A stretch of 64,000 bases of DNA from Schmidtea polychroa (lineage: Eukaryota): the NCBI GenBank assembly GCA_044892525.1, contig CM097885.1:24492001-24556000 (forward strand). Reading direction: 5' to 3'. Shown piece by piece: positions 2,044 to 57,632 of the stretch. The notes beneath the pieces are model-generated. The model ran no database searches and was not told the DNA's origin. It saw only the letters and a program-made list of their open reading frames with translations. Every line of letters begins with the position of its first letter. Position 1 is the first letter of the stretch. Made by a program: the position numbers and the translations under genes.

Positions 2044-2755
2044 CAGGAGTGGCCAACCGGTGGCCCGCATGCTTTAATATTTTGAAAATATAATAAAAAC
2101 TTTTTAAAATACGATATAATACAAAAAATGTAATAAATGGAACACAAAGAATATATAGTTAATAATTACAATACAAACTATAAAAATTTTTATCAAAAAA
2201 ACGAAACCTAACCAATAAATTAAAAAGGTAAATTCTCACTGAAAGACATTTGCCCTGAATAGTTAAAACGTAATGTTTTTGTGCAAGAATGTTTTTTGAA
2301 TGTAAAGTTTTAAATATCTCTTTCTTTTCTTTTTTTCAGTTGGTAGCTTTACGAACTGTAGTAAAAAATGTAATAATGGGCCGCCGGTAAATATTGAACA
2401 AAATTTATTGTTTATTTCATATTTTTATCTATTTTAACCAATTAGTTTTGTATGCTACATTTTGAAAATTTGCTCGATTCATTATGCTTTATAATCAGGG
2501 CTATCAAGTATAAATTGTGCCAGTTTATCCTGTACCTAAGAAGCATAATTTATTTAACATGCACGCAAATGCTTTATTGTTTTTTTAGCGGTTGTCTCAG
2601 ACCCCACTACGGGCTATTACTGCGCTTCTCCTGTTCCTTAGTTGGAATTAGCACAGAAGCATTAGTTAAAAATTTACGCCTTTCAAACCTGCGGCCCGCC
2701 GCATTATTCAAAAATATTGTAATGGCCCTTTTACCAAAAAGGTTGGCCACCCCTG
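2044..2755. mobile_element. hAT-type MITE
   Basis: TIRs CAGGAGTGGCCAACC / GGTTGGCCACCCCTG (14 of 15 match); 8-bp TSD ATCTAGAA at 2036-2043 and 2756-2763. Confidence 0.93.
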
Positions 2756-3609
2756 ATCTAGAACGTTTACAAACCCATCAACCATGGGAAATAAAATTAT
2801 GAAATTATTTAACTTATTGCTACGGTTGCACTCGATAGAAATAAGCACTATATCAGGAACTCGAGATTACCCGAATCTATAACTTGTTGGTGCCTTTCAT
2901 GGAACTAAATCTTCATTCATGTAAGGTAGTTCAAAATTTCTATTTAAAAATAAATATATAAATGCTATAAGTGTGATCAGTTAGTTGAAATAACTATTAG
3001 AGTTAAGTTAGTATATTAAAATCAAAATATTAAATTATATCATATTATATTAAACTATATTAAACTATTTTAAATTAAACCAATTATATGTATGATCAAT
3101 AATTGCATTAATATTAATAACTACTACGCCTCAGCTGTTTAAATTTTCCGAAAAAATGAGAGAATATAAAACTGTAATTAATAAATAAATGTTGAAAGAA
3201 GACTTGAATTTAATTGCGTTTAACAGTTCACAAGGAGCACTAAAACTGGTATAAATAAGAGTTTCAGCAAATGCATAAAAAAAAGCATTTAAATACTGTG
3301 TCGAATTTCTCACTCACTATTAAATTCTTAACAACCGGTAATTGAGACTGTAAAGATTTGATATCAATTCATAAGCGGCAAAATAGTGACTGAAGCTTAA
3401 ATAACTTCATTGAGTAACATGGTACTTTGAAGATCCTTAACCAATAATTCACTCTTTGAATCTTCTCTAGATGATAATCTAAAATTCATTTGAGCTTAGA
3501 AATTCTCTGTTACTTCACAGTACATGCTTCGGAGAATTTCTTTCTTATCAGCAACATCTGGTACACTATGAGACCCGGTGATTATGCTTTGTTTTGATTT
3601 GATTCATTC

Positions 3610-3627
3610 TGGTAGCAGAGCGTGGTT
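3610..3627 (+). promoter_or_regulatory. Primer-binding site complementary to the initiator tRNA-Met 3' end
   Basis: TGGTAGCAGAGCGTGGTT, the typical animal tRNA-iMet PBS; lies just after a CA (3605-3606) and upstream of the ubiquitin-gag region. Confidence 0.75.
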
Positions 3628-3820
3628 CTGGCTATTCAGCCAGAACAAAGTAACACATGATTGTTGTCTTTATTATATTTTGTATTTTTAAATTTATGTA
3701 CATTAAATTAAATTTTAATATAAGTTTAAAAATGTTAAAGGCTAATAAATGTAACTTTTTCGGCGAAACATTTACCCTAGGGCCTTCCCTTCCAAAAAAT
3801 TATAAAAATAATAAAAAGAA

Positions 3821-4033
3821 ATGTTTTCAAATATTTATAAAATCTTTGTCAGGAAAGACTATTACAATTAAGGTTGAGTCAAGTGACACCATTAAAAATG
3901 TAAAAGATAAGATTCAGGAAAAAGAAGAGTCAATTTTGCTTGTAAAGCATTAAAAGACGGCTTTACTTTATCAGACTATAGTATTAAGAGAAAATCTACG
4001 CTACGTCTGGTCTTGGGTCTTACAGCGGGAGGT
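3821..4033 (+). pseudogene. Ubiquitin-like domain (frameshifted) at the N-terminus of BEL/Pao gag
   Basis: [34 protein letters not shown], then after a frameshift [28 protein letters not shown]; colinear with ubiquitin. Confidence 0.85.
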
Positions 4034-5662
4034 CTGGTATCAGATGCGGAGTTCGAGGCCGGTTACAGAAAACGAACAGGGTTGAAGATTGCATTTACGG
4101 AACAGGGCTTTAGCAGATAGGGTGGACATTACGGAAGAACAAAGGAGAAGTATGAAAATCTCATGACAGAATTCGAGCAGCTGAAGAATAATGTCCTGAA
4201 GTTAGGACGAGAGAAGGTAGTGAAAGAAATTGAAGCAGATCTGAAACGATTAGAAGCGGATTTTAGCAGAATTGGTTTATCTATTCTTCACGTAGAAGAA
4301 AGAAAGTTTTAAAGTGGAATCACTGAAGGTCACAGAAAAATCATTTAGGAGTAAAGACCCTAATGAAAAACCGAAGTTAATAGTGGGATTGAAGCCCTTA
4401 TAACTTCCGATATATAATGGAGGAGTAAATGAATACTTGGCGTGGCGATCAATAGTACAAGCCTGCATTGAAGATACGGACGAGCCTAGCCAAATAAAGT
4501 ACTTATATCTAAGGCAATATTTGAAAGGAGAGGCTCTAAGACTAATATTGAAGCGTTTGAAGCCGCAGTGAAGCGGTTAGACCAGCGATATGGCGGTGCC
4601 GAAAGAAATTATTCAATGATGATGGAGTTCGTGCAGCGCTTTTATCCTATCAGAAACAATGAGTTGAAGGATCTCGATAGGTTTTCCGAATTGCTTCAAA
4701 ACTTAATATTGAGATTGAAAGTCTTGAATAAAAAGCAGAAGTTAAAAGATGGCATGATGTATCAATGCTTTTTAAAAAATTGCGAGAGATAATGATTGTT
4801 CAGTGGGAACGTAACATTGAGACAGGCAGGGAAAGGACGGTTGAAAGCTCGGCACAGTGGATCGAAAGTGAAGCAGAAAACACCGTAGAGCAATCAGTGT
4901 CTTGTTTGGAGAAAGACCAACAAAAAGTAGAAACATAAAACCAACAACAAACTTCGGAAATGCGAATAGGTACACTAACTTTGCGGACAGTGGGCGAAAG
5001 ATAGAAGTTAGTAGTGTGCGTAAAAAAGGGAACCAACCTGTATTAAATGTGAAGGAAGCCATTACTTAAACCAATTTTCAGAGTTCCTAAATCTGAATTT
5101 CAAGGAACGACATGAGTTTATGGCCAAGAAGCAACAGCTCACATGGTTCGAGAATGTGAAAAACCGTGTTTTTGTAAGGACAGGGACTGTACTTGAAAGC
5201 ATCATAATTTTCTCCATGACTCAGAGGACAAAATTGATGAAAATCAAGAGCCGAACAATGAAAACACGTCAATGATGACTCCTCAAGATAGACAGAGTCA
5301 GAAGATGTATTTTATTTTACAAACTATTTCTACAAAGTTAATTCATAAAGGGAGAGGGATCAGAATCAATGCATTACTGGACGGATTGCTGAACTGACTT
5401 CTAGACCCAAAACTCTAAGTTGTGACTGAAATGCGTAGGTACATAACATGCAAAAAGCAAAAAGTATAGTTAAATATAAAAAATACACCAATTAAACAAT
5501 ATTAATTAAAAGAGAAAACAGCAAAAATATAAACACAGAAATTAAATAAAATTATACAAAAGCAAGAAGTTATGCAAAATCGAACTCAAAAATAACCAAA
5601 TAAACATAGAGTTACAAAAAACAGACTCGAATAACTTAAAAGACGGGGAAAACAGTAAAAAA

Positions 5663-6071
5663 TTCCAGAAAAACCCAGAACATTCCATAAAATGGCGATG
5701 ACCATCATAAAAGCCATCTAGAGCAATAAAAGTTAGAAAAATAAATAAATTAGTAATAAAAATAAAAAATCTTAAAAAGAAATTCAGAAAACATCAGTTA
5801 AAATAAAAATTAAATTAAAAGTAATATGGAATGTTCTGGAACCGTTCCAAATCCATCATGGACGTAAAAATAACAAGAAATAATTAAAAAATAAAAATTT
5901 AAAAATAAAAACAAAAATTATGGCACAAAAATTGCCATTAAAAATATCAAAATCGCAAAATAGAAAATTCTGGAATAAAAAGAATTCGAGTTTGTTTTAA
6001 TGCATCAATACATACACGTGTACTTGCACACACAAAAATAGGTATATATACCGACGCATTTTAGTCACAAT
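5663..6071 (+). promoter_or_regulatory. Putative promoter of copy A: heat-shock elements, E-box, TATA box
   Basis: GAAtgTTCtgGAA (5829-5841), GAAaaTTCtgGAA (5963-5975), CACGTG (6015-6020), TATATATA (6043-6050); all conserved in copy B. Confidence 0.6.
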
Positions 6072-7849
6072 TAATCTCTTTATGCCAAATTTTTAATTCT
6101 TCTCAACTTCGGAATAATAGTAAGATTTTTCTTGTATTTGTTATATGTATTGTATTTGTTATATAATTTAAGTTTGATAATCATGCCTATTCTATTTAAT
6201 TTATTCCAATATTAGTTGAATGTAAGAGTGTTCAGAGACACATAGATTCATCTGCGTCTCTGCTCAGTCGTGCATTCAACTACATCTTTTAACTATTGGC
6301 ATTTCACATGCAGACACGCATTATCTATATTATAGTTTATTCTTTTTGTTCGGTCATCGTAGGTCGTCCACTTCAATGGTTCTGCCTTGGAGTTGTGTCG
6401 ATAAAATCCCTCCGCTATGGCTTTAATTATTTATCATCGGTCGACCACGGTAGGTTTCGACCTGACATAACATTAAGGTTTGTCGTAGTGGTCACAGTGG
6501 GGCCATGAAAGCAAACACTCTTCCCGACTTCAAAGCATGACATAATTAAAATCAACATTAAAAATCTCTACAACACAAACATCCTAAGGTTAATAAACAG
6601 AGTAGAACTCAGACCTAAATTAATCACAACTCAACACTCATACCTAATGTGGACGGTTGAATTCATCAAAATTCGGCCTATGCGTTGTCGAACATAGATT
6701 TGGAGATGTCCCAAATAAAAGTTCTAGTAAAATAATGATTTCCTTCAATGATTGATTTAGTAATACGGGCCTTCATGAAAGTGTTAGACATGCGTATCGG
6801 CAGGGTTTGGATGTTAAATTGAATCAACTTCAAACGAACGATAAAAATACTAACCGTAGTAGTATAAAACTCCATAGAACCATGAATTGTATTTATAGTT
6901 TTAGTTACTTTTGAAGAGAAATTCGGATTAATTATAAATGTATAAATCATAAATTTAACTTCTGGAAATTATAAATTACTAATTTATATTAACGTTAAAA
7001 ACTATAAACTATAACCTATGTCAATTATAAAATATAAATCATGAATAGTGCTATATAAATAGTAAATGTATCCAATCCTTAAATACTTGTATATAAATTT
7101 ATAAATTGTAAATAGTCATGTATAAATTATAAATGTATCGGGGTTATAAAATATAAGTTATAAATAATTATATAAAAATTTTTTTGATTATAAAATATAA
7201 AGTATAGATGGTTGCACCTAACTTATGCATGAATCTTGATGCTCGGAAATAGAACCCATAATTAGCTATAGATAAATTCTGTCTACGAAAATAGTAATTC
7301 TAAATAATTATATAAAATTTTTGATTACAAAATATAAAGTATAAATGATTGATTACAAAATATAAAGTATAAATGATTGAATATAAATTATACATATATC
7401 TTGATTTTATAAAAATAAACTATATATAAATTTTGATCATAAAATATAAAGTTAAATGGTTATATATAGAGGTTGAGTATAAAATATAAATAGTTATATA
7501 TATATAACTTGTAAATATAGAACTAAATCATAACTGGCTATATATCAATTTTGATCGAAAACTATGAAGTATAAACAGCTATATATAAATTGAGTATAGA
7601 TCTTAATTAGTAAAATGTGAATTAGAGATAACCATTTGTAAAGTATAGAAACATAATTCATGAACCATACCTAAAGTATAAACTAGAATTCATATTAACT
7701 ACCCAGGTTCCGAACGTAACCTGCAAAATTTGTAAAGTCTAATATCAGTCACCTCCAGAGATATGATCCTATGCCAAGGATATGAAATATAAATTTTTGT
7801 TAAATTATAAATTCTAAATGCATACAAATTAAACAAAGAAATATAATTC

Positions 7850-8060: not shown

Positions 8061-9748
8061 GTAACTTCCAAAAATCCAAATTTGATTGAATAATCGATTT
8101 AGGATTTCCCCTCACAACTAAATTTAGAACCTACCCTTTTGCCCCAATAAGAATGATCATAATTCCTAAAGTCTATTTTTAGTAACACCCCCCCCCCTCG
8201 GAGAAAATGCTAGGACTATTAATTAAATAAGAACATGGGTGGATACATCTATATAGATATGTGTGTAAACGTAGGTAACTATACGTATATAATAAGTTAA
8301 TTTAACCCAAGCTTATCAGTGACGGATACATCTTAGTTAACTTAGCGGCCCCAGAAATTAAAAGCCATGTAAAACCTACATTGTTGACTTAAACTAATTC
8401 ATCGAGAACACTAGGAATGCATTGAGACAGCCGATACCAACTATTGAACTCCACGGAATCAACTGCATGAATTATCGATAAATGACAAAAGTACATCTTA
8501 CTTAAAATTAAAAGCGTTATCAAAAGGGAATACTAAATTAAATTATTCAGCAAAATTTCTAACATAATTAGATACAAATCAAACTAAAGATACCAACACA
8601 GAGTCATATAAAATTCCTTAAAGGCTTTGAACAATCGACCATTCCGTCCGAGTGAAAGATTTCCACCAAATATATCTAAAATCGAAAAGTTATTATTGAT
8701 AAATAAAGTACTTACAAGTTAATCAAAGGGGATTACACCACTCATGACGAGCACAACCGAGGGATAAGTAAGTAAAATGAGAAGCTAGGCTCGTCAATGA
8801 TACTTATCGCCCCAGTGTACCCGAATTTAGTGGTAAAATATCGGAATACAAAAGAAAAAAAAATTATATATACATATATAGGCAGAAAATTAACTGATTG
8901 CATTTTAAATTACCATCTAGTGGTAAACAAAATTCGGAAAATTCAAGTGGTTAAGTTAAACAAAATGAATTTTCAATAAATTTTTGAGATACTATCAGAT
9001 AAGGTATAGGATTCATTACATTGATATTTAGGGTTAACTAAAGTTTTTATTAAAAGGATAAAATGAAAAAATTTAAATTCGAAATTCTAAGTTATAGTTA
9101 TTCCACTAGTCGTATTACCCCATTTAATTCGGCAACCAAATTACAAATCTAAGAGGTAGATAATTTAGAATAAAAAGTTGGAATGAAGAACTCCGTGACT
9201 GAGGCCCTTGTCCATACGTTTTATCATCGTGTCATTCGATAACTTTCATAAACATCATGTCAAAATCAAAACTTGGACAATACCATGGCACTACCAATGT
9301 TTCCGTCCGCCCGTCGATGTTTTCGTCGGTTGTTCTAGCATTCGTAGCGTCAAACGATGGCAGTGTGCGTTAGTAGGTCGGGAGGAGCGTTAACAAAAAG
9401 CCTGTGTTTAAAGACTCATCTCAGTCTGTTGGTGGGTTACAGGTACTGAAAAATCTTTACCCCCTCATGCTGTTTCCAGCGTAACCCAGAATACAATTTA
9501 TAGCCGACCACTTGATACCCGTTGAGCAATCAACGTTGGTACTGTATCAAGGGTTTCGGCACTAGCAAAAAGTGAGCATGCCTAGCATACTATAATTGTC
9601 TAGTACCCACTAGGGTTCACGGACTGCCGATAGAAGGCCTATGTCCGTTTTTCTTTAGTCCCCATTCCGAAAATCAACATTATGGCAAATTCGAAATGCC
9701 CAGATATGAATACACCCGTAATATTTATTCACAACACAAAATCAAAAC

Positions 9749-36573: not shown

Positions 36574-37367
36574 CTATAAGAATTTGGCGTGTTCATCGAA
36601 TGGATATTGAGTACTTGGTGCTACATTCCATAATTCGGGTGACAAGTATTCATAGGTTTTCCTAATGGCCATGTATGTTGCTTTAGCTAAAAATAGTAAT
36701 AATTAATTACCTTATTTAAATAATATAAATTATTACCAAAATTTTCTAAAGTTGCAGTTTGCCCATTAGCACTAGTATAAACATCTTGAATACCAGCCAT
36801 ACTTAACAGTTTCTTTGTAACTGGAGCTCCGACAATTCCTGTACCTCTTGGGGCTGGAATAAGTCTGACACTTACAGATCCACATTTTCCAGTAACCTTT
36901 GATGGCACGGTGTGAGTGTCACCAATTTTGTTACCCCAATATCCTTTTCTTACGGGAATAACTGAAAGTTTGGCTTGGATAATTGCTCCTCTAATTGCAG
37001 TTGCAACTTCTTTAGCACATTTAACTCCAAGTCCAACGTGACCGTTATTATCTCCAAGAGCAACAACAGCCTTAAATCGAGTTCTCTGGCCAGCACGAGT
37101 TTGTTTTTGAACTGGTTTAATTGAGAGAACTTCGTCTTTTAAATCAGGTAAAAAGTGATCGATGATTTCAGCTTCTTTAATTGGTAAACTGTAAATGTAG
37201 GTGTCTTCCAAACTCTTAACCTTTCCAGCTTTAACCAATTGACCCAATTTAGTGCAAGGTTCCCATTCCTTTGAATCTTTTTCTCCTCGTCCTCGTCCAC
37301 GTCCTCGACCTCGTCCACGTCCCCTTCGACCTCTGCCAAAACTTGTTCTTGCTGGTACTGTTGACAT
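36574..37367 (-). CDS. RPS2: 40S ribosomal protein S2 (uS5), two coding exons 37367-36737 and 36686-36574
   Basis: RG-rich N-terminus, [28 protein letters not shown]; a 50-bp GT-AG intron restores NFAKATY...FDEHAKFL*. Confidence 0.97.
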
Positions 37368-42047: not shown

Positions 42048-44026
42048 AAACTTGACAAATTTTTTATTATAAAAAATCCAGTAAAAAAAAATTGAAATAA
42101 AAAAATGCCTACTTCAAAAAACTTGGATACCCAAGATTCTCACTCAAACCAAGATTATTTTTGTGATTCATGTAATAGGAGTTTCAAAGCAAAAACAGCA
42201 TTAATGTCACATGAAAGATCAAAAGGTCATTTAAAGAAATTAAATTTATTAGATGATAGCAACTCTAAAATTTGTACCAAGTGTAAAGAAAGATATTTAT
42301 TTTCAGGGTTTGATAAGCATTTTAGAAATTGTATTGTAATAAAAAAAATAAGAGAATCATTTTCATGTCTCAAATGCATAAAGTCTTCAAAAGTAAATTT
42401 GAATTAAAGGAACATGCTAAAGAATGTGAAGATGATGATGATGATGATGAGGAGGTTGAAGGTTGGGATGAATTTAATCATGTTGATGAAGAAATTGGAG
42501 CATCTATAATTTCTTCATATATTAAAAAAAATTTAAGAGAAATAAAAGAATCAATGGAAAGATCTATAGCAAGGTTCAAAGGTACAAGGTTTAATATTAT
42601 AAAATATAAAATAGGAATAAACGCAAAATATTGTCGACAAACTAATCAAGCTTCTCACTCAAACCCAAATTTTCTAAAGTTTATGATTCAAATTGATTAT
42701 AAATATTTATATTCAATGAAGGGATTTAAAAAAAACAATCAAAGAAATTATTCCAGCGTTGCAAGAACAATCTGAACATGAATTAGGAGAATCAGATTTA
42801 TGTTTCCATTCCTTTGAAAATATTCAAATAGACTATTGGAAAGGAAACCCCCAGTTCCCAAATCCTTTATTCCAACACCTTTTATTTTTAAACATGTAAT
42901 AAATGTCAAAAATGGTGATAACAAATGTTTCCTATGGACAATACTATCAGCTTTACATCCTCAAGAACAACATTCTTATCGAGTATCTAAATATCGACAA
43001 TATGAACATGAAATTTTATTCTGGGATGGTTTTGAGCACCCAATGAAAATTGAACACATGTCAAAATTTGAAATATTGAATCAACTTAGAATTAATATTT
43101 ATGAATTAGATGGTGACAGGGTTATACCAATTTATATTTCAGATCAAGATGAAAATTCTTCAACTGTAACTTTTAATACAATAAGTTTATTAATATTAGA
43201 AAATATTGATGGTGATGATTTACTTTCTCATTATGTTTGGATAAAAAATTTTCAAAGCTTTATGAGATCTCGATCATCATTCTGTCATCGAGTACGAGGA
43301 CACACTTGTGAAAGATGTCTTTATTATTCAACTTCTGATGCTGTCAGAATAAAATATGAAAGATTATGTCGATATAATGAACCGGCATTAATTAAAATGC
43401 CAGAGAATCTTGAAATGAAATTTAATAATTATTCGATTTTATTAGAATCTCTTGATACAATTTATGGGGATTTTGAAACAATTAATAAACCACAAAATTT
43501 AGAACAAGAATATCTAAATATCATAGAAAACAATAAATTATTAGATTCTTGGTATGAGTATAGATTGAATCAACTGAATCAATTGAATCAATCGAACCAA
43601 ATGAATCAATTGGAAAAAATGAAAGATTTTCTCGAACTAAACAAAAAATCTTTTACAATAAAATTAACTAAACAAGTTCCATCAGCATATCGTTTATTCA
43701 TTGTGAAAGTAATTAAATTGAAGTATTTAATTTCCAGATTTAAATAGATTTAAATAATATAATTAAAGTAAATAATAAAATTATAAATTAAAATAATAAA
43801 TTAAATATATTTAAGGATGATTGAAGATTAAAATATAAAATATTTATTGAATGCTTGTGTACGAATATTCCCTATTCAAATATTAACTCATGCTTGCGAA
43901 AATATCCTCTAAGCTAAAAACAGTGATTGTTTTAATAATAGAGATTTTTGTGTTGTTTTTAAAAATAAAGTTTTGTTTTGTTTTTAAAATATGGATGTGA
44001 TTAATTTAAGAAACCAAACTTCTAAT

Positions 44027-45043
44027 ATGGCGACCACGATGGCCAATTTCATCAAAGCACCAGAAAATTTCAAGATGGGAACCGATGTTGAAGATTTCAT
44101 CAAGGAAACCGAAAGATTTTTCGAATTAATGTCGATAGCTGAGGACTTCAAAGGTAGATTTGTCAAAGCTTTTTTATCAACAGATGCAATTAAGAAATAT
44201 GATTCAACTGATGAGAAACAAAGTTATATGGATAGACTGAGAGAAGTCTTCAAAAAACCAATGGATCTGATGGAAGACTTAAGTGAAGCACTAGATTATA
44301 GACAAGGAGATGATTCCGCTGATGATTTCTGCGAAAAAATTGAGAAATTATCAAAAGGAATTCTGAAACATGAGTTAAATGAAGAAGAACTTCAAAGATT
44401 TCTCATATTCAATGCAGTGGAAGACCAAGATTTGATAAAAGATTTGAGATTAAATGAATATAAATCTGTGAATGAAATGAAAAAGAGAATTAAAAAACAC
44501 GAGAAAGTAATTAAAGAATTAAATCGAAATAGTGACTCGATGGCAGTTGTGGGAACTGAAACGAGATATGCGGATATGGTAAAAAAAGCTATAAATATTC
44601 CAGCAAGACCAATATTACGCAGATATAACGATATGCCTAGAAGAAATACGTTCAGCGAGCCAAGACAGAATCGAGAATATCAGAACAAACAATCGAATTT
44701 TAATAATCAAGAATTCCAAACAAACAATAGGCCAAAGTTCAGATGCTGGGCATGTCATGAAGAAGGCCATAGAAGAGCAGAATGTCCGAATGTTAAATGT
44801 TATCATTGTCACAGAGCAGGTCATTTCAAACACCAGTCCTTTCAATTAAGAAAGAATTTTAGAGATGTAAGAGAAAATGAAGAAGAAAACATACGGGGAA
44901 AATTCCAAGGAAATCGCAGAAATTTCAGAAACCGACAATATCAGAAACCAGTTGCGGCAATGGAAGAAGAAGAAGAGCATGAAAATCAATACCCAAATGG
45001 ATATGCTCCACCACGAGAGGAGGTGATCGGAGCACTGCAGTAA
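44027..45043 (+). CDS. Gypsy Gag
   Basis: Open frame with CWACHEEGHRRAEC and a second, degenerate CCHC knuckle. Confidence 0.85.
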   Translation: MATTMANFIKAPENFKMGTDVEDFIKETERFFELMSIAEDFKGRFVKAFLSTDAIKKYDSTDEKQSYMDRLREVFKKPMDLMEDLSEALDYRQGDDSADDFCEKIEKLSKGILKHELNEEELQRFLIFNAVEDQDLIKDLRLNEYKSVNEMKKRIKKHEKVIKELNRNSDSMAVVGTETRYADMVKKAINIPARPILRRYNDMPRRNTFSEPRQNREYQNKQSNFNNQEFQTNNRPKFRCWACHEEGHRRAECPNVKCYHCHRAGHFKHQSFQLRKNFRDVRENEEENIRGKFQGNRRNFRNRQYQKPVAAMEEEEEHENQYPNGYAPPREEVIGALQ

Positions 45044-45785
45044 GTATGAGTTATATGTTGAATGGGGAATTGTATGATGATTGTTTGCATGCATTTAATA
45101 ATGAGAAATATGAATATATAAGTAATGATGATAATTGTAAATGCGTCTCCGATGCAGATATTTATAGTGATTGGTGTAATAATGGATTGAGGTTAGATGA
45201 TTTTGGAAATGTTGTAGAGCATGTTTGTAATATTAATGATATAAGTTATAATAGTAATATAATTAAATATAATAAATTAAATGGTAGACCAAGTGTCACA
45301 TTATTGATCAATGAGAACGAAGTATGCTGTTTATTAGATACAGGAGCAAAGATCAGTGTGATGGATGAAAGTGTATTAGAAAATATAGGAAAGTTTAATT
45401 TAGAAAAATGTTATGTTAAATTGAGATGTGCAAATAAGTCACCGATATCTATAGTAGGAAAGGTAAATATTACAGTTCAAATAGTGAGAACGAAAGAGGC
45501 GAGAATAATTGAATTTATTGTGGCCAAAGAGATTTCACCAAAGGTAATTGGAGGTATAGACTTCTTGAGAAAATTCGACATAATGTTAAAGATGAAGGAT
45601 AGTTTATTAAATGATGATGTAACTATTGCTGGAATAAAAAACTTAAAAGAATTGAGTGAATCTAATCAATGTAAAGATGGTAATGTTAGAGAGCTATTCA
45701 GAAAATTTGAGTCAATTTTTATGAAACACAAATGGGATGTGGGTAAGACAAATTTAATAACGCATGAAATTTTAACACCAGGAAG
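44992..45785 (+). pseudogene. Gypsy Pol N-terminus (aspartic protease), truncated before RT
   Basis: CLLDTGAKISV and IGGIDFL motifs in the -1 frame relative to gag; runs directly into the 3' LTR remnant. Confidence 0.85.
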
Positions 45786-46139
45786 ATTTATTGAATGCTT
45801 GTGTACAAATATACCTTATTCAAATATTAACTCATGCTTGCGAAAATATCCTCTAAGCTAAAAACAGTGATTGTTTTAATAATAGAGATTTTTGTGTTGT
45901 TTTTAAAATATGGATGTGATTAATTTAAGAAACCAAACTTCTAATATTCATCAAAAGTAATTATCCAGAAATAATTGAATCATATGAAACAGCATATCGA
46001 GGAACTTCTCCACGGGATACTCTAGATCATTTTGTTACAAGTATAAATTCCTTGGAATCATTCTTGCATAAAAAATTAAAAACTGATTTTCCAATAAATA
46101 TTTCACCAGAACAATTAATAGAATATATTTTTAATATTA

Positions 46140-46778
46140 CATATATTTTTTCTACACAAGGGTAAATAATTTGGAGGATTCATTCTTTCGATTATTTTGT
46201 ATCCCACTCTAACAGTATTTGATGGAAAAGAATATAAAATGTTTGTTTGTTTTCCATTATTGTATGATCCCGTTATACAATTACACTCTATATTTATTGA
46301 ATTTGTATTTGTTATTTTTATAATATTTTGGATTTTATAATTGCAATATTTGGAATACCACTATATTCTTTGGATTCAAAACTCAAAATAGTATGAAAGA
46401 AACTAGAATTATCAAATCTAAGTGTAATATTTTTTATTGTCAAGATACATTTTGATGTTTGTACATCTGCTTTTATTTCTACATTTCCACTTGTTTCTTT
46501 TAAAATTATTTTATTTAAATCTATTATTTCATATAACCCTGGTTCAATTGTTTTAATTTTTTTTGTCCTATATCATTAGTTGTAGAAAAATTATTATTAT
46601 TAATATTTATATTGAAAACAGTGTTGTAACAACTAAACCATAATAATCCTAATTCATGATTTAAATTTATGGAGTCTTCAAAATTTATTGTAAAATCAGA
46701 TTCGGTAGAATTAATTAATAGGGTTCTTGAATATTTATCAGACATTATATTTTCCATTTTTTTAAAACTTTCTTCCAT
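46140..46778 (-). pseudogene. Polinton minor capsid (penton) protein, frameshifted and C-truncated
   Basis: SDFTINFEDSINL...ELGL...YNTVFNI, then IEPGLYEI and INIECNCITGSYNNGKQTNILYSFP...GYKIIE...YLP, typical of Polinton penton. Confidence 0.72.
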
Positions 46779-46824
46779 TTTTATAGATTTTAACATCAAA
46801 ACAGAATTTTAATATCAAAACAAA

Positions 46825-47355
46825 TCAAAATAATATTTTTAAATCATTATACATTTCTTGGATTATATTTATAAAATTCTGTTTGATATTTTCTTTTTCT
46901 TGTTTGTCGAGATTATTTAATTTGTACAAAACATATAAACACAAAATTCCACATATTTTAGTATTATCGGGTTGTACTTGTCGAGTATTATAAATATATT
47001 CTCCTCGATCAGAATCTTGATTCTGATTGAAGAGTTCTTGTTTTGTTGGTGTTGTATCAACATGAAGAAAACCTTGTCCCAAATATTGCTCAACTTCTTT
47101 TGTTGGTTTAATTCCATAAGAATCGAAATAAAGAACTCTATTATAAACCCCATCCCAATGAGATCCTTTTTTATCCGAGTTTTGATAATTGATAATTATA
47201 TTATTTTTCTTGGTTTTACCGATCTTGTGCAATTCATCATTCATTAATATTTTAATTGGTAAATTTAAATAATTTGCATAGTCTTTTAAATCAAAATTTG
47301 TTTTTGTATCAATTCCAAATGTTTTTAAAAAATCCAATATTGAATATTCGGTCAT
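46825..47355 (-). CDS. Adenain-like cysteine maturation protease
   Basis: GSHW, YFDSYG and Q...CG.LCLY catalytic motifs. Confidence 0.9.
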   Translation of the reverse strand: MTEYSILDFLKTFGIDTKTNFDLKDYANYLNLPIKILMNDELHKIGKTKKNNIIINYQNSDKKGSHWDGVYNRVLYFDSYGIKPTKEVEQYLGQGFLHVDTTPTKQELFNQNQDSDRGEYIYNTRQVQPDNTKICGILCLYVLYKLNNLDKQEKENIKQNFINIIQEMYNDLKILF

Positions 47356-47399
47356 TTTGTTTTTAAAATTTTGGAAAAATTTTAAAAACTTAAAGTGTA

Positions 47400-48312
47400 T
47401 ATCTATTAACGAGTATATTCATTAAATTTATCTTGTGAAATTATTCCATGTTTTAATAATTTTTAGACATGTTTAAAATATCACCATTCAAATTATTATG
47501 ACCTGCTTTCTTTGCTGCTAATATTTTTCTTAGTTGAATAAAAAGATTAATAAAATCTTTTCCATTAATAGAATCCTGTTTTGTTACAAAACCCATTCCT
47601 TTTTCTTCTTTAACAGTATAACCCATTTCATTTTGATTTAAATAATGATTTAAACTCAGTATATATTTTGCTTTTGAACTATCTCCTACTAATTTTATTA
47701 AATGTAAATATTTTTTAATTTCATTTTTATCATCTGAAGAATATCCTTTAATTAATTTATCCAAATCTTTTGTGTATTCTACATTTAAACGTTGACTGTT
47801 GAAACTCTTTTCCCCTGTAAAATTGTTTAGAGTGAGAAAGCTATTTTCAGAATGAATATGTGGTTGGCCATTATTATTTTTATACAACACAAATCTTTGA
47901 TTATTAATTGTTATAATTTGATATCCTTTATCAATAGAAAAAGTTGGTTTAATTGTTGCAGGCAAACCATTATTAATTGTTGTATCAACTTTGTATTGTT
48001 TTGAATTTATTTCTAAATCTTCAAGTTCAAATCCCAAGATTCCAATTGCTCCAATTGGTCCAATTGTTCTAAATGTCCAGATTCTAATTCTTTGGGTTTT
48101 AAATGTCCAGATTCTAATTCCTTGGGTTTTAATTCATTCAAAGCTTTAAGAGTTGGTTGTTGTTGTTCCATCATTAATTCATTTAAAATTATGGATTCAG
48201 TATGCTGACTTAAATCTTTTTTGTTATACTTGTCTTGTTCAAAATGTAATTTTTTTAAAAGAGCTAATCTTTCTTCATTAACCATCTTATATACCATTTT
48301 ATGGTATACCAT
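47400..48312 (-). pseudogene. Polinton conserved protein of unknown function (frameshifted)
   Basis: Two overlapping ORFs (48312-48013, 48037-47453); C-terminal LRKILAAKKAGHNN resembles a motif recurrent in Polinton accessory proteins. Confidence 0.5.
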
Positions 48313-48369
48313 TTTTTATACCATTTTATGGTACATGTTCCTTTATTAGTAAAGTTCTTTCCAAGTTTT

Positions 48370-48904
48370 CAACGTGGAGATTTCTCCTCATTAGAAAAAG
48401 GTTTCAAATATAAACCCTTACCATCTTTTGATTTACAAATACAACCATTTTTCAAAGACTTACATATTTTTTTAAACTATCTTTATCTTTTGAAGATAAT
48501 TCAGACGTTGAAATTTGATTTTTGAGAAAATCATTTAAACCTCTACCTTTGTAAGGATCAAGGTATAATCAAGGTATAATATCAACACTTGTAGGACCTG
48601 TTCCTTTCTTTTTTTGAATTGAATCAATTTCATTTTGTAATTTTTGTTTTTCTAATTCAGTTTTTTGAGCTTCTTTAGATTTTTGAACTGTAGTTGCAAT
48701 CCCTTCAGCTATTCCAGCAGCACCAGATAAACCTGCAATGATTGCTGGTATTAAAGCAGCCAAGGGTAAAATACCACCTTGTTTAATTTTCTCGCGCACT
48801 TGCTCCTTGACAAGTTTTCCAACAAAATATTTCTTGCCATCAATTACTACTGATTTATTTTTGTTTGAGTTGATTAATTCTTTCAGAGATTCTTAAGTCG
48901 TCAT
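48370..48904 (-). pseudogene. Putative Polinton virion core protein with an adenovirus pX-like segment
   Basis: IKQGGILPLAALIPAIIAGL, followed after a frameshift by LYLDPYKGRG and GKGLYLKPF. Confidence 0.6.
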
Positions 48905-48919
48905 TTTTAAATAAATAAA

Positions 48920-49682
48920 ATGGTTAGTTGGAAACCAATTTTAACGCGACACAAAAGTAAATTTAATAATAAAATTTTTCCTGATAATTTTAGATTATTA
49001 ATTGTTAGATCTTCGGGTTGTGGAAAGAATGTTCTTCTTTTGAAAATGTTTTTCGAGGATGGGTTTTTAGATTATAATAATTTATAATTTTATTCTACAA
49101 CTATAAACCAACCAGAATTACAACTTTTGAAATGTGGATTTGAAAATAAATTAACTAAAAAAGAAATCATTGATATTTTTAAAAATCAACACACATGTCC
49201 CGATGAAGTTTTTCAACCGTGTGATATGGTTGATTGGTACAAGGAAGAGAATTCCGAGTCAGATATTATTTTCCAACAAATCTGAAGATGTAGTACATTG
49301 TGATTTTCTTTCCAAAGATAAAAAGAATCTAGTTATATTTGATGATGTTGTAAATATGAAAAATCAAGAAATTCAAAAATGTTATTTTACTCGAGGACGT
49401 CATAATAATTGTAATGTGATTTACATCTCTCAAACTTATTATGCTTTGGATAAAAATTCAATTAGAAACAACTCCAATTGTTTCATCTTTTTTAAATTAG
49501 ACAAGCGTGACAGGAATATGATTTATGGTGATTTATTTTCAAATGTTGAACCCGACAAGAACATGTTTGATATGTTTGTTGACAATCATTGGAAAAAAAA
49601 TATAATTATATTTATTTGGATAGAAAAGGGGATGAGATGCAGAGAAGCTTGTTTCAGACTTGAAACTTTGTTTCAGGTGTGA
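48920..49682 (+). pseudogene. A32/FtsK-type packaging ATPase (frameshifted)
   Basis: Degenerate Walker A RSSGCGKN, Walker B LVIFDD, RGRHNNCNVIYISQ. Confidence 0.9.
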
Positions 49683-49722
49683 AACCTTGTTTTAAAGCTT
49701 TAAACAAAATTTAGGAAAAATA

Positions 49723-50590
49723 TTAAAAACTTGATTTCTGTAATTCATTATTGTAAAATCTACCCAATATTTCTTCATTATTTAAATCGATGATACTATA
49801 TGTAATTGGAATTGTATGATGTATTTTATTTATAATAAAAATTTCATTTGTCCATTTCGTAGTGAATCCTTTTTCAAATTTATTTTTATATTTAAATATT
49901 CTTACTCGTTCACCAATTTTAAACTTTGGTTTTATAAGTGTTGTATAAACACTCATAAAACATTTTTCTACACCATTTTCAATATTTATTTCTTTAACTC
50001 TTTCAGGGTTTATAGAAGCTTTTCCTCCAAACTTGTTTGGAGGGAAAGAAGCATTTAAATGTGTTTCTTTTATAGAACTATGTACATCATTATTATATTC
50101 ATTTACCATCTTTTGTAACATTTCATTGTTCCATTTTTGTTTTCCAATAGCAGTAAAATATTTCCACATTTTATTTTTTAATGTTCTATTTAATCTTTCA
50201 ACTACGACTGCTTTTCCTTCATTTTCTGTTGAATATAATTTAATATCATTTTCTTGCAAATATTTTGTAAAAACTTTGTTATAAAATTCTGTTCCTTTAT
50301 CACACCATAAATATTTTGGAATTCTTTGATGTTCTTCAAATATATTTTCAAATGCTTCTGTAATAGAATATCCTGTTTTATTTTCTAAACATCTTGCAAA
50401 AGCAAATCTTGTATATAAATCTATTACAGTTTAAATTATTTTATATTTTTCGGGGTCTGATGATTTGGTTGGCATAAAGACTAAGTCAGCAGACCAAGTA
50501 TGATCTTTTTCATAAACTTGAACTTTTAGATATTTTTTATTTTTTCTAAATTCATTGTGTAATTCGTTGGCATATTTTATTTGTGATTCT
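49723..50590 (-). pseudogene. Polinton retroviral-type integrase (one frameshift near 50431)
   Basis: WSADLVFM, TVIDLYTRFAF, LWCDKGTEFYN, VVERLNRTLK (D,D,E triad), KFEKGFTTKWTNEIF. Confidence 0.92.
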
Positions 50591-50749
50591 GTTGGGATTA
50601 ATAAATTAGTCTTGGACGCACTCTCTCGATCTAAACTTGGTTTAGAAAGAGAGAGGTGTTTTTCAATGTCTGCTTGTTCAATAATCTTTTTATTAGCAAC
50701 ATCTTTTGCCATCCTTGGTACTCCTGCACCTATGAGAATCATAGGTGTA

Positions 50750-51321
50750 GGAGGTAGACCTGCACCTATGAAAATTTTACCCTTCATTGCTAATTTAACT
50801 AGAGCTCTTTGAATCTTTTCTTGGGTTGATGGATTTTGTATACTATTTAAATCATGAATTAAATTAACATCAGCAACATGTCTATCTCTAAGATTTTTTG
50901 AATTGTAAGCAATGTCATGTTTCAAAGCAGCTTGGTCAATTCTATTTATTGGTTCCTCTCCTTGTTTGGGATTATTATTTTCATCAAGTCTAATATCTAA
51001 TCGTGTTCCAGGTCCAGTATAGTTGTGTTTAAATTGATGTTAATTTTGAAGATTGTAAATCACTACCCTGTTTTTCAAAAGCAAATCTACTTGAAGGATC
51101 GAAATCTAACCATGGAGTATTATTTGAAGATGAAATTATTTCACCTTCAAAATTATTTGATGGAATATTATTATTATTACTTGATTGAGTTAAAACCTCT
51201 CTCTCTCTCAAGCAAGTTTAAATCAAGATGTGTGTTTTCTAGTTTTAAGATGACTCGCTTTATGGTGTGTTGTAACATCACAACAACAAGTTTCACATCT
51301 CCAATAACGTTTAGTAGTCAT
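50750..51321 (-). pseudogene. Zinc finger plus parvovirus-type phospholipase A2 domain
   Basis: MTTKRYWRCETC...HLKTRKH from 51321; HNYTGPGT Ca-binding loop and DQAALKHDIAY catalytic helix at about 51030-50905. Confidence 0.82.
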
Positions 51322-51425
51322 TTTTAAAAAGTTAAAATTTAATTATAATAATTTTCTTTTATTACTAAAACTTGTTTTCTTAATAAAACTTGTTTATTTC
51401 TCCAAACAAGTTTGGAGAATTAAAC

Positions 51426-52658
51426 TTAATCTCCTCTAACATTCTCAATTATTGAAATCTTTCCACCATATAACTTCATTTCTATTTTCTTTTCTTCAAG
51501 AATTAATGTATATATTTTTGCTTTAAAATTAAAATCCTTTGTTATATGAAGAGTAACATCAACATTATTTATGGTTAATCTATCATCTTGATCTGAAACA
51601 TTTATACAGAATATAGAATACAAATTTTTGAAATCTTCTAACTTAATTGTGGTTTTCTTTTGAAGTCTTGGCATATTTGAATATAATTTTTATATGGAAA
51701 TATATTTTCATTGTTTTCAACATTAAACTCCATTCCATTTACTGGATAATAAGAATTATTCAATTGAATTTGAATTGATTTTAAATTATCATCTCCAATC
51801 TTTTGAATAAACAAGTTGTTATTTTTTTGAAAGGATCGATCTAATTCTTTGAATCCAATTAAAATATATCTTGGACGATATGCTAAATTTGCTACCTTTA
51901 TAGAGTATGTTGAACCTTTTCTCATGTCAAATACACTACAAATTCTATTTAAATAATTAACATTTATAGACTTGTTGGAATTTAATCTTTCAAGGAGTTT
52001 AATTTCAGCATGTGGATTTAATGTCCATTCGGGTATATTTGTATCTGCAGCTCCATAGAATAATACTTTATCATCTTCTATTCTATTGTATGAAAGCATA
52101 TACGATTATAGTTTTGAAGGAATCCAAATAAATATTTTAATTCAAAATAACCTTCAAATTTTTTAGACTTGTAAAGTTTAACACGTTTATTATAACCATA
52201 ATTTGTATCTAAATCATCTTTATCTGTATCACCTTTATTTACATCAGGGATACAACCTGTTAATTCACCATATTCATTTTTGTAATCACAACCAGTCAAA
52301 ACAAAATTTAACATTGAAGAATATACACCTGGATACAAAATATTTGCAACTTCTGAGGGTCCTAATTTTAATCTCATGTTGGAGAAGAAATTTGGGAAGA
52401 AATTATTTTCTAGGGTTATATCTTTGTTTGGTTCAATCTCTAATTCAATTTTGTAATATAATTTTGCATTACAAATATCTATAGGGTTTGATGTTTGAAG
52501 AGATTGAAAAACCATATCACCTGAACGATTTAAATTTGAAATGGAACCAGAGGTTGGACAAATTTTAAGTACATCATTTTTCTTAATTTCATGAATAAAC
52601 TGTTATAATCAAGATTTAATTTATTTTTTTCTGAAATCTCGAGATTTATATTGTTCAT
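51426..52658 (-). pseudogene. Polinton major capsid protein (double jelly-roll), several frameshifts
   Basis: NNFFPNFFSNMRLKLG, LKYLFGF, RPRYILIGF, IQLNNSYYP, FKNLYSIFCINVSDQ across overlapping ORFs. Confidence 0.82.
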
Positions 52659-52688
52659 TTTTATAATAGAATTTTTAGAATTTTATAA

Positions 52689-53094
52689 TATAATCTTGGG
52701 TATGAACTCAAACCTTGATTCGAACTCAAACCTTGGGTACTAGTGAGAATCTTGGGTACTAGTAAATTCACTAGTACCCATAATTATTTAAAATATTATT
52801 TCTCAAGCACCCATCAATATTTAAAAAATATTAAAATGATAAAATTATTAAAATATAGAAATGTGAAATTATTAAATCCTTGAATTATTGAAATTATTTT
52901 TATTTTAAAATTATTAAAATTATTTTTATTTTAAAATTATTAAAATATTAGATTTGTAAGTAGTGGGAATAATGGGAATCGTTGGTCACACCATCCCAAC
53001 CACCCGAAGGGTGAGCGAGTAAAAAATAACTTGTTTCTTTTATGAGTGAATTGGGTGGGTGGTGTGGCCAACGATTCCCATTATGCCCACTACT
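52689..53094 (-). repeat. Right TIR of the Polinton
   Basis: Reverse complement of the left TIR. Confidence 0.92.
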
Positions 53095-53649
53095 TTCAAA
53101 AGATAGGATTAAAAATAGTTAATTTAAAGGATATTGTGGACAATGAATTATATAAATAATAAATTAAATGAATAATAAATAGCTAATTAATAATTTAGGT
53201 TGGTAAAACAACCATTTTTGTTGTAAACTAAATTCTCACTTATGAAAAAGCAAACTGTAGAGAACGTAGAATTTATTATTAATTATTACTAGGATAGAAT
53301 ATCCTTGTAATTAAATTTTTTTTGCATAAAGATCTGAAATTTTGAAATTTTAAAATTTATCAATTTAATTTATTATTTAAGTAAACCCCAATGAGTTGTA
53401 ATAATTGTAATAATTGCAAATAGATGGTTTAAATTCTTTGGGTTAAATCCTTGATTTTAATTTTTATTAATTAAAATTGTAATTACGTTGGAAAAGGAAT
53501 CTAGATAGTTAGACTCACTTTGATTTAACATGGATTCGTCCGAGTTGGAATTGGATATAATTTGTTAATGTCAGGATAAGCGGAAACATAATTTTAAAAA
53601 TATATAGAAATGTCTCAATCCAGTAGCCACGACGAGAAGGAGCAGGACA

Positions 53650-56583: not shown

Positions 56584-57400
56584 AAATTAGTAAATAGAAG
56601 ATAAACGAAGACAAAATTTTTTCAGAAATCATATCACATCTTAATGGAAATGAGGCTCATATATCTTATGAAACAATCAGTAGTAGTATTTTCAAGTATT
56701 TAAAAATATTACAGATACAAGGCTATGTATTGATGATTAATATAGATGGAAAATTGCAGTTGTAGTACCTGACACGTACGCAAAAACATTGGTAAATTAT
56801 TTTCATATTGAACTATGCCATCTGGGCATTAAGAAGACCTTATGTTATTTAAAAGATTTTTTCTTTTGGCCATCCATGAATCAGAGTATTACGGAATGTA
56901 TTAATAAATGCAAGATCTGTGCTAGTAGAAAGATTGATCAAGGAAGAACAAAGGAAATCCTATTGCCAAGAATAGGAAAACGGTTTTTAGAACAGATAGT
57001 AGTGGATATTGCATATATGGAAACAAAAGCAAGTAAGAAATATATGATAGTGGTAATATATCGTTTTAGTAAATTGGTCAGTCTATCAGCAACAAGTACT
57101 CAGGATGAATCAACGATTTTGAAGGAGGGAATTCAATATGAGAGACCTTACAAAATTTTAAAATTCCTATCACCAAGACAAGTTGAATTACAATTTCCAA
57201 ACTCAATCATATCAAGAAGAATTGAATGGTTGAAGAGATTCAAAGAAAATGAAGAAGAGGAAAGTAATGTTCAATAATTAATGTTTATTAATTATAGTTG
57301 TTTTTATAATAATAGAACACGTTGGATTATTTAAATATTTAAATATACTTTATTTGCTATTTGTTATTTGTTATTATGATTTGTGAAGAAATTGTAACTA
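56584..57400 (+). mobile_element. Gypsy integrase remnant with polypurine tract and LTR fragment
   Basis: HIELCHLG...CKIC HHCC finger, IVVDIAY, internal deletion, purine tract GAAGAAGAGGAAAG. Confidence 0.75.
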
Positions 57401-57632
57401 TTACTGTTAGGGATATTTAAATAATTAATTTATAAATAAAATATATATTATATTATAAGAAAAAGTATAATAAGTATAAAAGCTGGCACGCATAATTATC
57501 ATTATTATTTAATTAATTAATTCGCCATTTAAATCGGGTGTTTTAATAATACCAGATTTGGGCAATAATTTGTATTTTGCATTTTGTATTAAAAAATAAA
57601 TATTTTTAGATTATTAACTGGTTATTATTAAC

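What the first reader, a model, noticed from the sequence alone, without database searches (positions are those of the whole stretch)
3610..4600. Ubiquitin fused to the N-terminus of a BEL/Pao Gag, inside the element
Seen: a tRNA-iMet-type PBS at 3610, then a ubiquitin domain whose C-terminus (STLRLVLGLTAGG) runs without a stop into LVSDAEFEAGYRKRTGLKIAFT and on, across lesions, to DUF1759-type gag. Because it lies between PBS and gag it looks like element cargo, not a neighbouring host pseudogene. Known: host deubiquitinases cleave after ubiquitin di-Gly, and pestiviruses use captured ubiquitin as a processing signal. Inferred: this lineage may use ubiquitin to generate or regulate the Gag N-terminus. 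This copy is degraded.
Basis: partly seen in the sequence, partly recalled or inferred. Interest (0 to 1): 0.75.

Follow-up and report, generated by a model that had tools for sequence, protein, structure and literature searches.

The report
Retrotransposon clade with ubiquitin-fused Gag
This is a decayed copy of a large jumping-gene family whose capsid gene sits in one reading frame behind a captured ubiquitin and swappable pieces of host messenger RNA, and the ubiquitin likely acts as a cut site that would let host enzymes free the capsid protein.

Summary
Real and family-wide. The window holds a broken, 5'- and 3'-truncated BEL/Pao copy: LTR end, tRNA-Met primer site, leader, ubiquitin (Ub), gag, start of protease. 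All 114 examined copies of its lineage keep Ub or its tail against Gag. A second lineage (35% Gag identity) has intact 2,189-codon frames running from inside the LTR through Ub into gag-pol. LTRs carry spliced host-mRNA mosaics in the Gag frame. Five of 153 database Gag relatives also carry Ub. All Ub-bearing Gags form one clade with invariant L-x-L-x-G-G. Ub is under purifying selection, has lost recognition surfaces, and one subfamily recaptured fresh host polyubiquitin. Correction: in this copy the 'GG' is out of register; position 75 is Ala. The lineage's tail (R72G/R74A) resembles a deubiquitinase-resistant mutant, so cleavage is likely for the clade but uncertain here. No cleavage, translation or start site was shown. 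The scan already reported this family at other loci of this genome. New here: the clade outside this genome, the tail analysis and the recapture.

The parts
3579..3606 (+). 3' remnant of the 5' LTR (ends in CA, then 3 nt to the primer site); the rest of the LTR is not recognisable
   Evidence: 93-95% over 57 nt (3579-3635) to L052/L053; 3235-3609 has no other match in the genome
3610..3627 (+). Primer-binding site complementary to tRNA-Met(CAT) 3' end; read as G-S-R-A-W in the Gag frame
   Evidence: only such site in the window
3628..3824 (+). AT-rich leader between primer site and ubiquitin; open in the Gag frame in most relatives, broken here
   Evidence: primer-to-gag distance 421 = 1 mod 3, as in 59 of 86 copies
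3825..4030 (+). Single diverged ubiquitin unit (older 'A1' type), split by an internal deletion with frameshift; tail reads L-T-A-G
   Evidence: PF00240 in two frames; register against relatives
4031..5250 (+). BEL/Pao gag (N-terminal helical part, DUF1759, Cys/His knuckle region) with several stops and frameshifts
   Evidence: intact relatives score DUF1759 above cut-off
5290..5383 (+). Start of the protease region; family homology ends at about 5383
   Evidence: 75 local alignments end at about 5380; translation

Best explanation
The window holds a decayed copy of a BEL/Pao retrotransposon clade in which one reading frame runs from host-mRNA pieces inside the LTR, through the primer site and a ubiquitin unit, into gag-pol, and the ubiquitin likely serves as a processing adaptor that a host ubiquitin-type protease would cut after Gly-Gly to free Gag from the variable leader. 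SHOWN: the anatomy; spliced, sense-strand host cargo in both LTRs, in the Gag frame; one captured host 5' UTR and start codon checked against its source gene; no Met at Ub position 1 in single-Ub lineages; Gag homology beginning right after the di-Gly; purifying selection on Ub; invariant L69/L71/L73/G75/G76; repeated loss of recognition-surface residues; recapture of host polyubiquitin in one subfamily. INFERRED: that cargo is captured by template switching during reverse transcription of a long R region; that translation starts at the captured start codons; that cleavage occurs; that the surface changes keep the released or uncut unit from being conjugated or degraded. I put cleavage at about 0.7 for tails that keep R72 (lineage B, the recaptured unit, most outside relatives) and about 0.45 for the R72G/R74A tail of the window's lineage.
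For: Ub or its tail is against Gag in 114 of 114 lineage-A loci (104 with at least 190 nt of Ub, 71 with two units), and in 28 of 30 lineage-B loci found by DUF1759 alone; the 2 without also lack the first 83 and 113 Gag residues. Intact 2,189-aa frame: Ub, DUF1759, RT, Peptidase_A17, DUF5641, starting about 250 nt into the LTR. Stop-free for at least 100 codons upstream of the primer site in the Gag frame in 62 of 90 A and 22 of 30 B loci, against 1/0 and 1/0 in the other two frames. Leader open in 22 of 25 length classes against 1.1 expected from shuffles. Seven host exons joined without introns in one cargo, with 5' UTR and ATG. Ub dN/dS 0.24 (A1 vs A2) and 0.29 (B subgroups; gag 0.14 and 0.27). 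5 of 153 database Gag relatives carry Ub ending in GG; all 8 Ub-bearing tips sit in one 12-tip clade (FastTree support 0.96) of 143; one outside protein also has a primer-site-like motif and an HSP90 piece before Ub. Naive chance that seven lineages keep both Gly is 3e-4 (not independent). A Gypsy-type element in this genome has a 29%-identical Ub-like unit ending in GG before its Gag. Leaders hold a 19-aa hydrophobic stretch (Kyte-Doolittle at least 1.6) in 30 of 44 open copies, a reason to cut it off. Precedent: Ub inserts are processing signals in pestiviruses, even when N-terminally truncated (PMC8310069 passages); R74N stays cleavable (PMC11503651 passage).
Against: No cleavage, protein, ribosome or start-site data. 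Lineage A's Gag-proximal tail has G at 72 and A at 74 in 58 of 60 two-unit and 14-15 of 15 one-unit copies, plus I44N; R72A/R74T conjugates resisted deubiquitinases (PMC11503651; isopeptide bonds, other organisms). G76V occurs in 12 of 56 recaptured units, scattered in a shallow clade of young copies, so cleavage there is not needed for those non-autonomous copies to spread. Two loci (L138, L139) share an in-frame loss of most of Ub. In-frame Met codons also exist in the leader shortly before Ub, and the first ATG of the LTR is often out of frame. Within A and B alone GG retention is not beyond chance. Glycines can be conserved as a flexible linker.
Confidence: 0.6

Rival explanations
1. The ubiquitin is not cut. 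It stays as a stable, disarmed N-terminal domain of Gag that aids folding or insulates the capsid domain from the cargo, which is either tolerated or removed by the element's own protease.
For: Radical changes at 8 of 29 recognition positions against 0 of 45 core positions (Fisher p 3e-4) and 15 of 133 others (p 0.036) (position sets are from my recall of Ub surfaces). The only two majority changes in the fresh unit are I36S and H68R. R72G/R74A resembles a resistant mutant. G76V in 12 of 56.
Against: A passive domain does not need L-x-L-x-G-G invariant across tails that are 40-81% identical to host Ub, nor Gag starting right behind it, mostly with a small residue (S, G, N; M in one). Surface loss is also expected if a released cargo-Ub must not be conjugated.
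Confidence: 0.25
2. Fused ubiquitin recruits host ubiquitin-binding machinery (ESCRT late-domain mimic, or a degron that limits Gag).
For: Engineered Gag-ubiquitin fusions replace late domains (PMC2958808 passages). K48 is kept in nearly all units.
Against: That activity needs L8 and I44 (same paper). I44 is N in lineage A (59 of 60, 14 of 15) and V with V70S in B (30 of 30). No env gene was seen in the four lineage-B frames scanned.
Confidence: 0.07
3. Translation starts at a leader Met just before Ub, or the leader is spliced out, so the LTR cargo is untranslated and Ub is simply the start of Gag.
For: In-frame Met codons lie 8-25 codons before Ub. Donor-like and acceptor-like motifs flank the AT-rich leader (sequence).
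Against: Does not explain open frames of 100-300 codons upstream of the primer site in the Gag frame only, 22 of 25 open leaders, or 13 host families in the Gag frame.
Confidence: 0.05
4. The ubiquitin is neutral cargo or a processed pseudogene inserted into one copy.
For: Ubiquitin mRNA is abundant (recalled) and this family captures many host mRNAs. This copy is degraded.
Against: Same junction in all examined copies of two lineages and in five outside proteins; dN/dS 0.24-0.29; no poly(A) at its ends.
Confidence: 0.03

Closest known systems
Belpaoviridae / BEL-Pao LTR retrotransposons (ICTV profile PMC8742986, whole text read); nearest described group probably the Flow superfamily (PMC3118150, passages and supplement 6 entries)
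   Same: LTRs of 0.76-1.07 kb, 18-nt primer site, polypurine tract, single gag-pol frame with DUF1759, PR, RT, Peptidase_A17, integrase. Lineage-B RT resembles Flow family NC-63 (roughly 55-60% by eye; no tree).
   Different: The profile describes a non-coding region at the primer site and tRNA-Arg or Gly priming. Here the frame crosses the primer site, priming is by tRNA-Met, LTRs are host-mRNA mosaics and Ub precedes Gag. 'Ubiquitin' occurs 0 times in the main text of either paper.
Ubiquitin insertions of cytopathogenic pestiviruses (PMC8310069, passages)
   Same: Captured cellular ubiquitin placed in frame before a viral protein and behind foreign sequence; host hydrolases give the authentic N-terminus.
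   Different: There the inserts are sporadic and near wild type in an RNA virus. Here Ub is fixed across an old retrotransposon clade, is 40-81% identical to host Ub, and the upstream part is exchangeable.
LTR-mediated retrocopies (Tan et al. 2016, PMC5131818, passages)
   Same: Spliced host mRNA pieces, some multi-gene chimeras, captured by template switching, including by a BEL element.
   Different: Those are internal inserts flanked by discontinuous element sequence. Here the pieces are inside both LTRs of intact elements and in frame with gag-pol.
Burro giant Gypsy elements of planarians (PMC6431247, section 7 read)
   Same: A ubiquitin/SUMO-like domain inside an LTR-element polyprotein.
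   Different: Gypsy type, over 30 kb, Gag at the N-terminus and the Ub-like domain far downstream; not a Ub-Gag junction.
Engineered Gag-ubiquitin fusions as late domains (PMC2958808, passages)
   Same: Ubiquitin directly fused to Gag.
   Different: Artificial, C-terminal, without GG and dependent on I44, which lineages A and B have changed.

Membership tests
Belpaoviridae (BEL/Pao) | LTRs of 0.2-1.2 kb flanking gag-pol, with target-site duplication | tested here: met
   33 relatives with both LTRs: 763-1073 nt, median identity 99.4%; exact 5-bp TSD in 23, 6-bp match in 6 (five inside microsatellite), none in 4. The window copy keeps only 28 nt of LTR.
Belpaoviridae (BEL/Pao) | Gag (DUF1759) then PR-RT-RNase H-IN with BEL-specific domains | tested here: met
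   L223 and L228: DUF1759, RVT_1, Peptidase_A17, DUF5641 in one frame; lineage-A copy L058 has RT, Peptidase_A17, integrase in broken frames. Absent from the window copy beyond the protease start.
Belpaoviridae (BEL/Pao) | 18-nt primer site and polypurine tract | tested here: met
Belpaoviridae (BEL/Pao) | Primer is tRNA-Arg or tRNA-Gly and the region at the primer site is non-coding (wording of the ICTV profile) | tested here: not met
   Primer matches tRNA-Met; frame open through it in 46 of 91 A loci with a primer site. I read this as a deviation from the typical description, not as exclusion, because the family is delimited by pol homology.
Flow superfamily of BEL/Pao | PR-RT-IN phylogeny groups with Flow families | tested here: inconclusive
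   Visual similarity to NC-63 and NC-703 only; four exact 8-aa motifs not found in the supplements; no tree built.
Pestivirus-type ubiquitin processing signal (works-like claim) | Host-derived Ub in frame, ending in Gly-Gly directly before the released protein, non-Pro at the next position | tested here: met
   not met in the window copy itself (Ala at 75)
Pestivirus-type ubiquitin processing signal (works-like claim) | Intact L-R-L-R-G-G and I44 surface for hydrolase recognition | tested here: not met
   Lineage A: G72, A74, N44; lineage B: C74, V44, M42. Met only in the recaptured unit (44 of 56 with G76) and in three outside proteins with L-R-G-G.
Pestivirus-type ubiquitin processing signal (works-like claim) | Cleavage by host hydrolases demonstrated | not testable with these tools
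   needs a biochemical assay or N-terminal proteomics
Processed pseudogene inserted into an element | Own poly(A)/TSD, restricted to one or few copies, neutral evolution | tested here: not met

The most novel reading that the evidence does not exclude
An old BEL/Pao clade, present beyond this genome, has given up a fixed start codon. It initiates Gag-Pol from exchangeable host mRNA 5' ends recorded in its LTR and uses a domesticated, surface-disarmed ubiquitin, refreshed from host polyubiquitin when captured again, as a universal protease-cleavable adaptor that restores a constant Gag N-terminus. A Gypsy family in the same host reached the same design independently.
Probability: 0.45. Interest if true: 0.88.

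Novelty: new variant of a known kind. Interest (0 to 1): 0.76.

Why it matters
If true, a retrotransposon clade uses the host ubiquitin-processing system as its first maturation step and turns its LTR into a recorder of host mRNA 5' ends. That would explain how an element can keep swapping its leader without breaking capsid assembly. It gives a natural series of ubiquitin tails (L-R-G-G, L-C-G-G, L-A-G-G, L-Y-G-G, L-K-G-G, L-R-G-V) for asking which residues linear-fusion cleavage needs. It also predicts hundreds of host-gene look-alikes in this genome that can mislead annotation, RNAi design and small-RNA mapping. I found no description in eight paper searches on the element side, but Repbase reports (for example the BEL1_SM entry cited in PMC3118150) and subscription journals were not searchable.

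Tried and rejected
Expression: no listed holder was on record as RNA. Contigs of runs guessed to be RNA cover parts of both lineages but cannot show start, strand or level. Table 5 listed no GT..AG joint across the leader, which proves nothing either way. Homology search with Ub+Gag as query was swamped by polyubiquitins: none of the best 120 shown of 1,245 carried a Gag family in its listed domains. The gag-only search at near length gave 3 proteins, none with Ub. Source gene for the chaperonin cargo was not found; the candidate fetched was only 68-75% identical. Selection on cargo protein: inconclusive, 6 non-synonymous and 4 synonymous shared changes, p 0.23 against neutrality; rare changes pN/pS 1.1. 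No Ub-free BEL family was found as an in-genome control: the 30 of 150 DUF1759 hits examined were all lineage B. Rfam on 2500-6500 gave one sub-threshold hit, taken as chance. The window's sequence upstream of the LTR remnant matched no other copy, and 3050-3228 is a different high-copy repeat, so this copy's cargo is unknown. Independent capture of Ub in A and B was considered (each is closer to host than to the other) and set aside in favour of one old fusion with refreshing, after the clade result; the tree is midpoint-rooted and covers about 190 residues. No structure or complex prediction was run. PMC8690248 passages added nothing decisive. The organism looks planarian-like (AT-rich, four large contigs, Flow-like RT); this was not established.

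Full report
OBSERVATION. The primer site at 3610-3627 matches the 3' end of host tRNA-Met(CAT) genes. Ubiquitin spans about 3825-4030 in two frames (PF00240 model 1-33 and 40-69), and its second half runs without a stop into Gag at 4031. Gag is broken by stops and frameshifts, family homology ends at about 5383 in the protease region, and only 28 nt of LTR end survive upstream.

FAMILY. A DNA search with 3780-4400 listed 41 matches, 29 of them (self included) spanning Ub through gag. A Gag-only protein search gave 108. I examined 114 loci from these two searches; about a dozen protein matches, mostly tandem or unplaced duplicates, were not included. 104 have at least 190 nt of Ub and 71 have two units; the other 10 still show the Ub tail DNA at the junction. 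A second lineage, B, has 149 scored matches to a Ub-Gag query. Of 30 loci found by DUF1759 alone, 28 carry Ub (26 ending in GG), and the 2 without lack the Gag N-terminus too. A and B are 35% identical in Gag and 45% in pol but share primer site, leader start and LTR cargo. B includes intact elements with one 2,189-aa frame holding Ub, DUF1759, RT, Peptidase_A17 and DUF5641. The window's one-Ub type had autonomous members (L058, broken pol). In a midpoint-rooted tree of 99 lineage-A gag stretches the window groups with old one-Ub copies. The 66 two-Ub copies form one clade (support 0.93), which also holds one locus that was cut too short to class.

THE FRAME STARTS IN THE LTR. In 33 elements with both LTRs, LTRs are 763-1073 nt and a median 99.4% identical, with 5-bp TSDs in 23. 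Upstream of the primer site the Gag frame is stop-free for at least 100 codons in 62 of 90 A and 22 of 30 B loci; the other two frames reach this in 1 and 0, and 1 and 0. I scanned 111 of 305 representative segments, the longest of each class. Host families hit 21 of 39 Gag-frame segments, 4 of 48 off-frame sense segments (three are cargoes seen in frame in other copies, one a WD40 hit in a decayed copy) and 0 of 24 antisense segments (2 hit other retroelements). With this gives 13 host families in the Gag frame: proteasome, dual-specificity phosphatase, chaperonin, Ras, LIM, EAP30, Adaptin_N, ClpP, myotubularin, cofilin, SelR, perilipin, DEAD. One cargo matches seven exons of a host gene at 95-100% without introns, including the 5' UTR and start codon. 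The AT-rich leader varies in length and sequence, yet the primer-to-Gag distance is 1 mod 3 in 59 of 86 copies and in 10 of 12 lengths seen twice or more. It is open in 22 of 25 length classes against 1.1 expected. Copies are related, so these counts are not independent events.

THE UBIQUITIN. Pairwise dN/dS is 0.24 between one- and two-Ub subfamilies (gag 0.14) and 0.29 between B subgroups (gag 0.27). Single-unit lineages have no Met at Ub position 1. In the two-unit subfamily, unit 1 from nt 39 onward and the first 76 nt of unit 2 are 93-98% identical to host ubiquitin DNA. The last half of unit 2 is 64-72% identical to host and 86-87% to the old unit. This is the footprint of one repeat length of host polyubiquitin mRNA recombined into the old unit (inference). 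Changes fall on recognition surfaces: A has I44N, R72G, R74A; B has R42M, I44V, V70S, R74C; the fresh unit has only I36S and H68R as majority changes. Radical changes hit 8 of 29 recognition positions, 0 of 45 core, 15 of 133 other and 0 of 6 di-Gly positions (position sets recalled, chosen after seeing some of the data). G76V is in 12 of 56 fresh units.

BEYOND THIS GENOME. A Gag-only search of 1.84 billion representatives listed 150 of 7,616 hits. With 3, 5 of 153 carry Ub directly before Gag, four confirmed by Pfam and one truncated. Four checked are 33-40% identical to the local families, and all five come from unnamed ENA and JGI contigs. In a 143-sequence Gag tree all 8 Ub-bearing tips lie in one 12-tip clade (support 0.96). 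Of the other 4 tips, two begin within or close to DUF1759, one inside the Gag N-terminal region, and one with a Ub-like tail. Across units 40-81% identical to host Ub, L69, L71, L73, G75 and G76 never vary, while 72 and 74 do; the next residue is S, G, N or M. P0157 has a primer-site-like motif, then an HSP90 piece, then Ub, then Gag. Ub-less relatives begin their Gag homology at about the place where Gag follows the di-Gly here.

MECHANISM. Most likely (0.6), translation starts at a captured host start codon in the LTR, and a host ubiquitin-type protease cuts after Gly76, giving Gag a constant N-terminus whatever the cargo; lost surfaces would keep the by-product from being conjugated or degraded. 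Capture, initiation and cleavage are inferred. Pestiviruses give the precedent (PMC8310069, passages). The main doubt concerns the window's own lineage: R72A/R74T ubiquitin resists deubiquitinases whereas R74N does not (PMC11503651, passages of sections 15 and 17), so the G72/A74 tail may be uncut or need an unusual enzyme. The stable-domain rival gets 0.25. A late-domain or degron role gets 0.07, because fused-Ub budding needs I44 (PMC2958808, passages). Untranslated cargo gets 0.05 and neutral insertion 0.03.

KNOWN SYSTEMS AND NOVELTY. The family is BEL/Pao by LTRs, TSD and domain order, probably near Flow (by eye only). It departs from the ICTV description in primer tRNA and in coding through the primer site (PMC8742986, whole text). 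LTR-mediated capture of host mRNA is known, but as internal inserts (PMC5131818, passages); Burro elements have a Ub-like domain far from the Gag N-terminus (PMC6431247, section 7). The scan has noted this family at several other loci of this genome, after I had recorded the same reading. One note led me to a Gypsy element with a GG-ended Ub-like unit before Gag, which I confirmed in part. Verdict: a new variant of a known kind, interest 0.76; this particular copy is a poor, decayed example of it.

Noticed in passing
L297:785-6382 (G000:C1, about 19.588-19.594 Mb): Gypsy-type element (RT, RNase H, integrase) whose 744-aa first frame has about 330 residues, then a Ub-like unit (29% to host Ub, ending in GG), then DUF7041 Gag. 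The lead came from note e1-8073826; its LTRs were not checked. A related frame is nested in L036.
   Followed up: partly
L115:4902-5600: In non-autonomous two-Ub copies the place of pol is taken by an in-frame acidic stretch that matches part of a longer 2.2-2.4 kb contig in the laid runs, probably another captured host mRNA; the frame stays open to the polypurine tract.
   Followed up: no
33 LTRs: The last AATAAA begins 35 nt from the LTR end in 26 of 33 and appears as Asn-Lys in Gag-frame translations, so U5 would be very short and R very long. A donor-like motif about 30 nt after the primer site might suppress the 5' poly(A) signal (speculation).
   Followed up: partly
L013, L009-L011, L019-L021, L109: A DEAD-box (eIF4A-like) fragment lies between primer site and Ub, in frame, in part of lineage A.
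   Followed up: partly
LTR 5' flanks of many A2 and B copies: Many insertions sit in ATT/AAT microsatellites, suggesting a target preference or a survival bias.
   Followed up: no
G000:C1:79326093 onward (L285): Tandem array of tRNA-Met genes with a 454-bp period; the pattern has 1,228 matches genome-wide.
   Followed up: no
window 9430-9652: 72-76% match over about 200 nt to sequence upstream of the primer site in L144 and L156, but not to the 33 delimited LTRs; probably an unrelated repeat.
   Followed up: partly
window 36690-37367 (-): 226-aa frame that looks like a ribosomal protein S2 start with RG repeats (name recalled, not scanned).
   Followed up: no
window 42800-61600: Other mobile-element frames: Gypsy-like gag/pol pieces (43988-45040, 57986-61634, 53574-54817) and polinton-like frames (42818-43744, 46828-52602), by appearance only.
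   Followed up: no
P0148: A Gag in the Ub clade whose predicted start is a Ub-like tail ending in K-G-G followed by Ser, so it is probably a sixth outside member cut at its N-terminus.
   Followed up: partly
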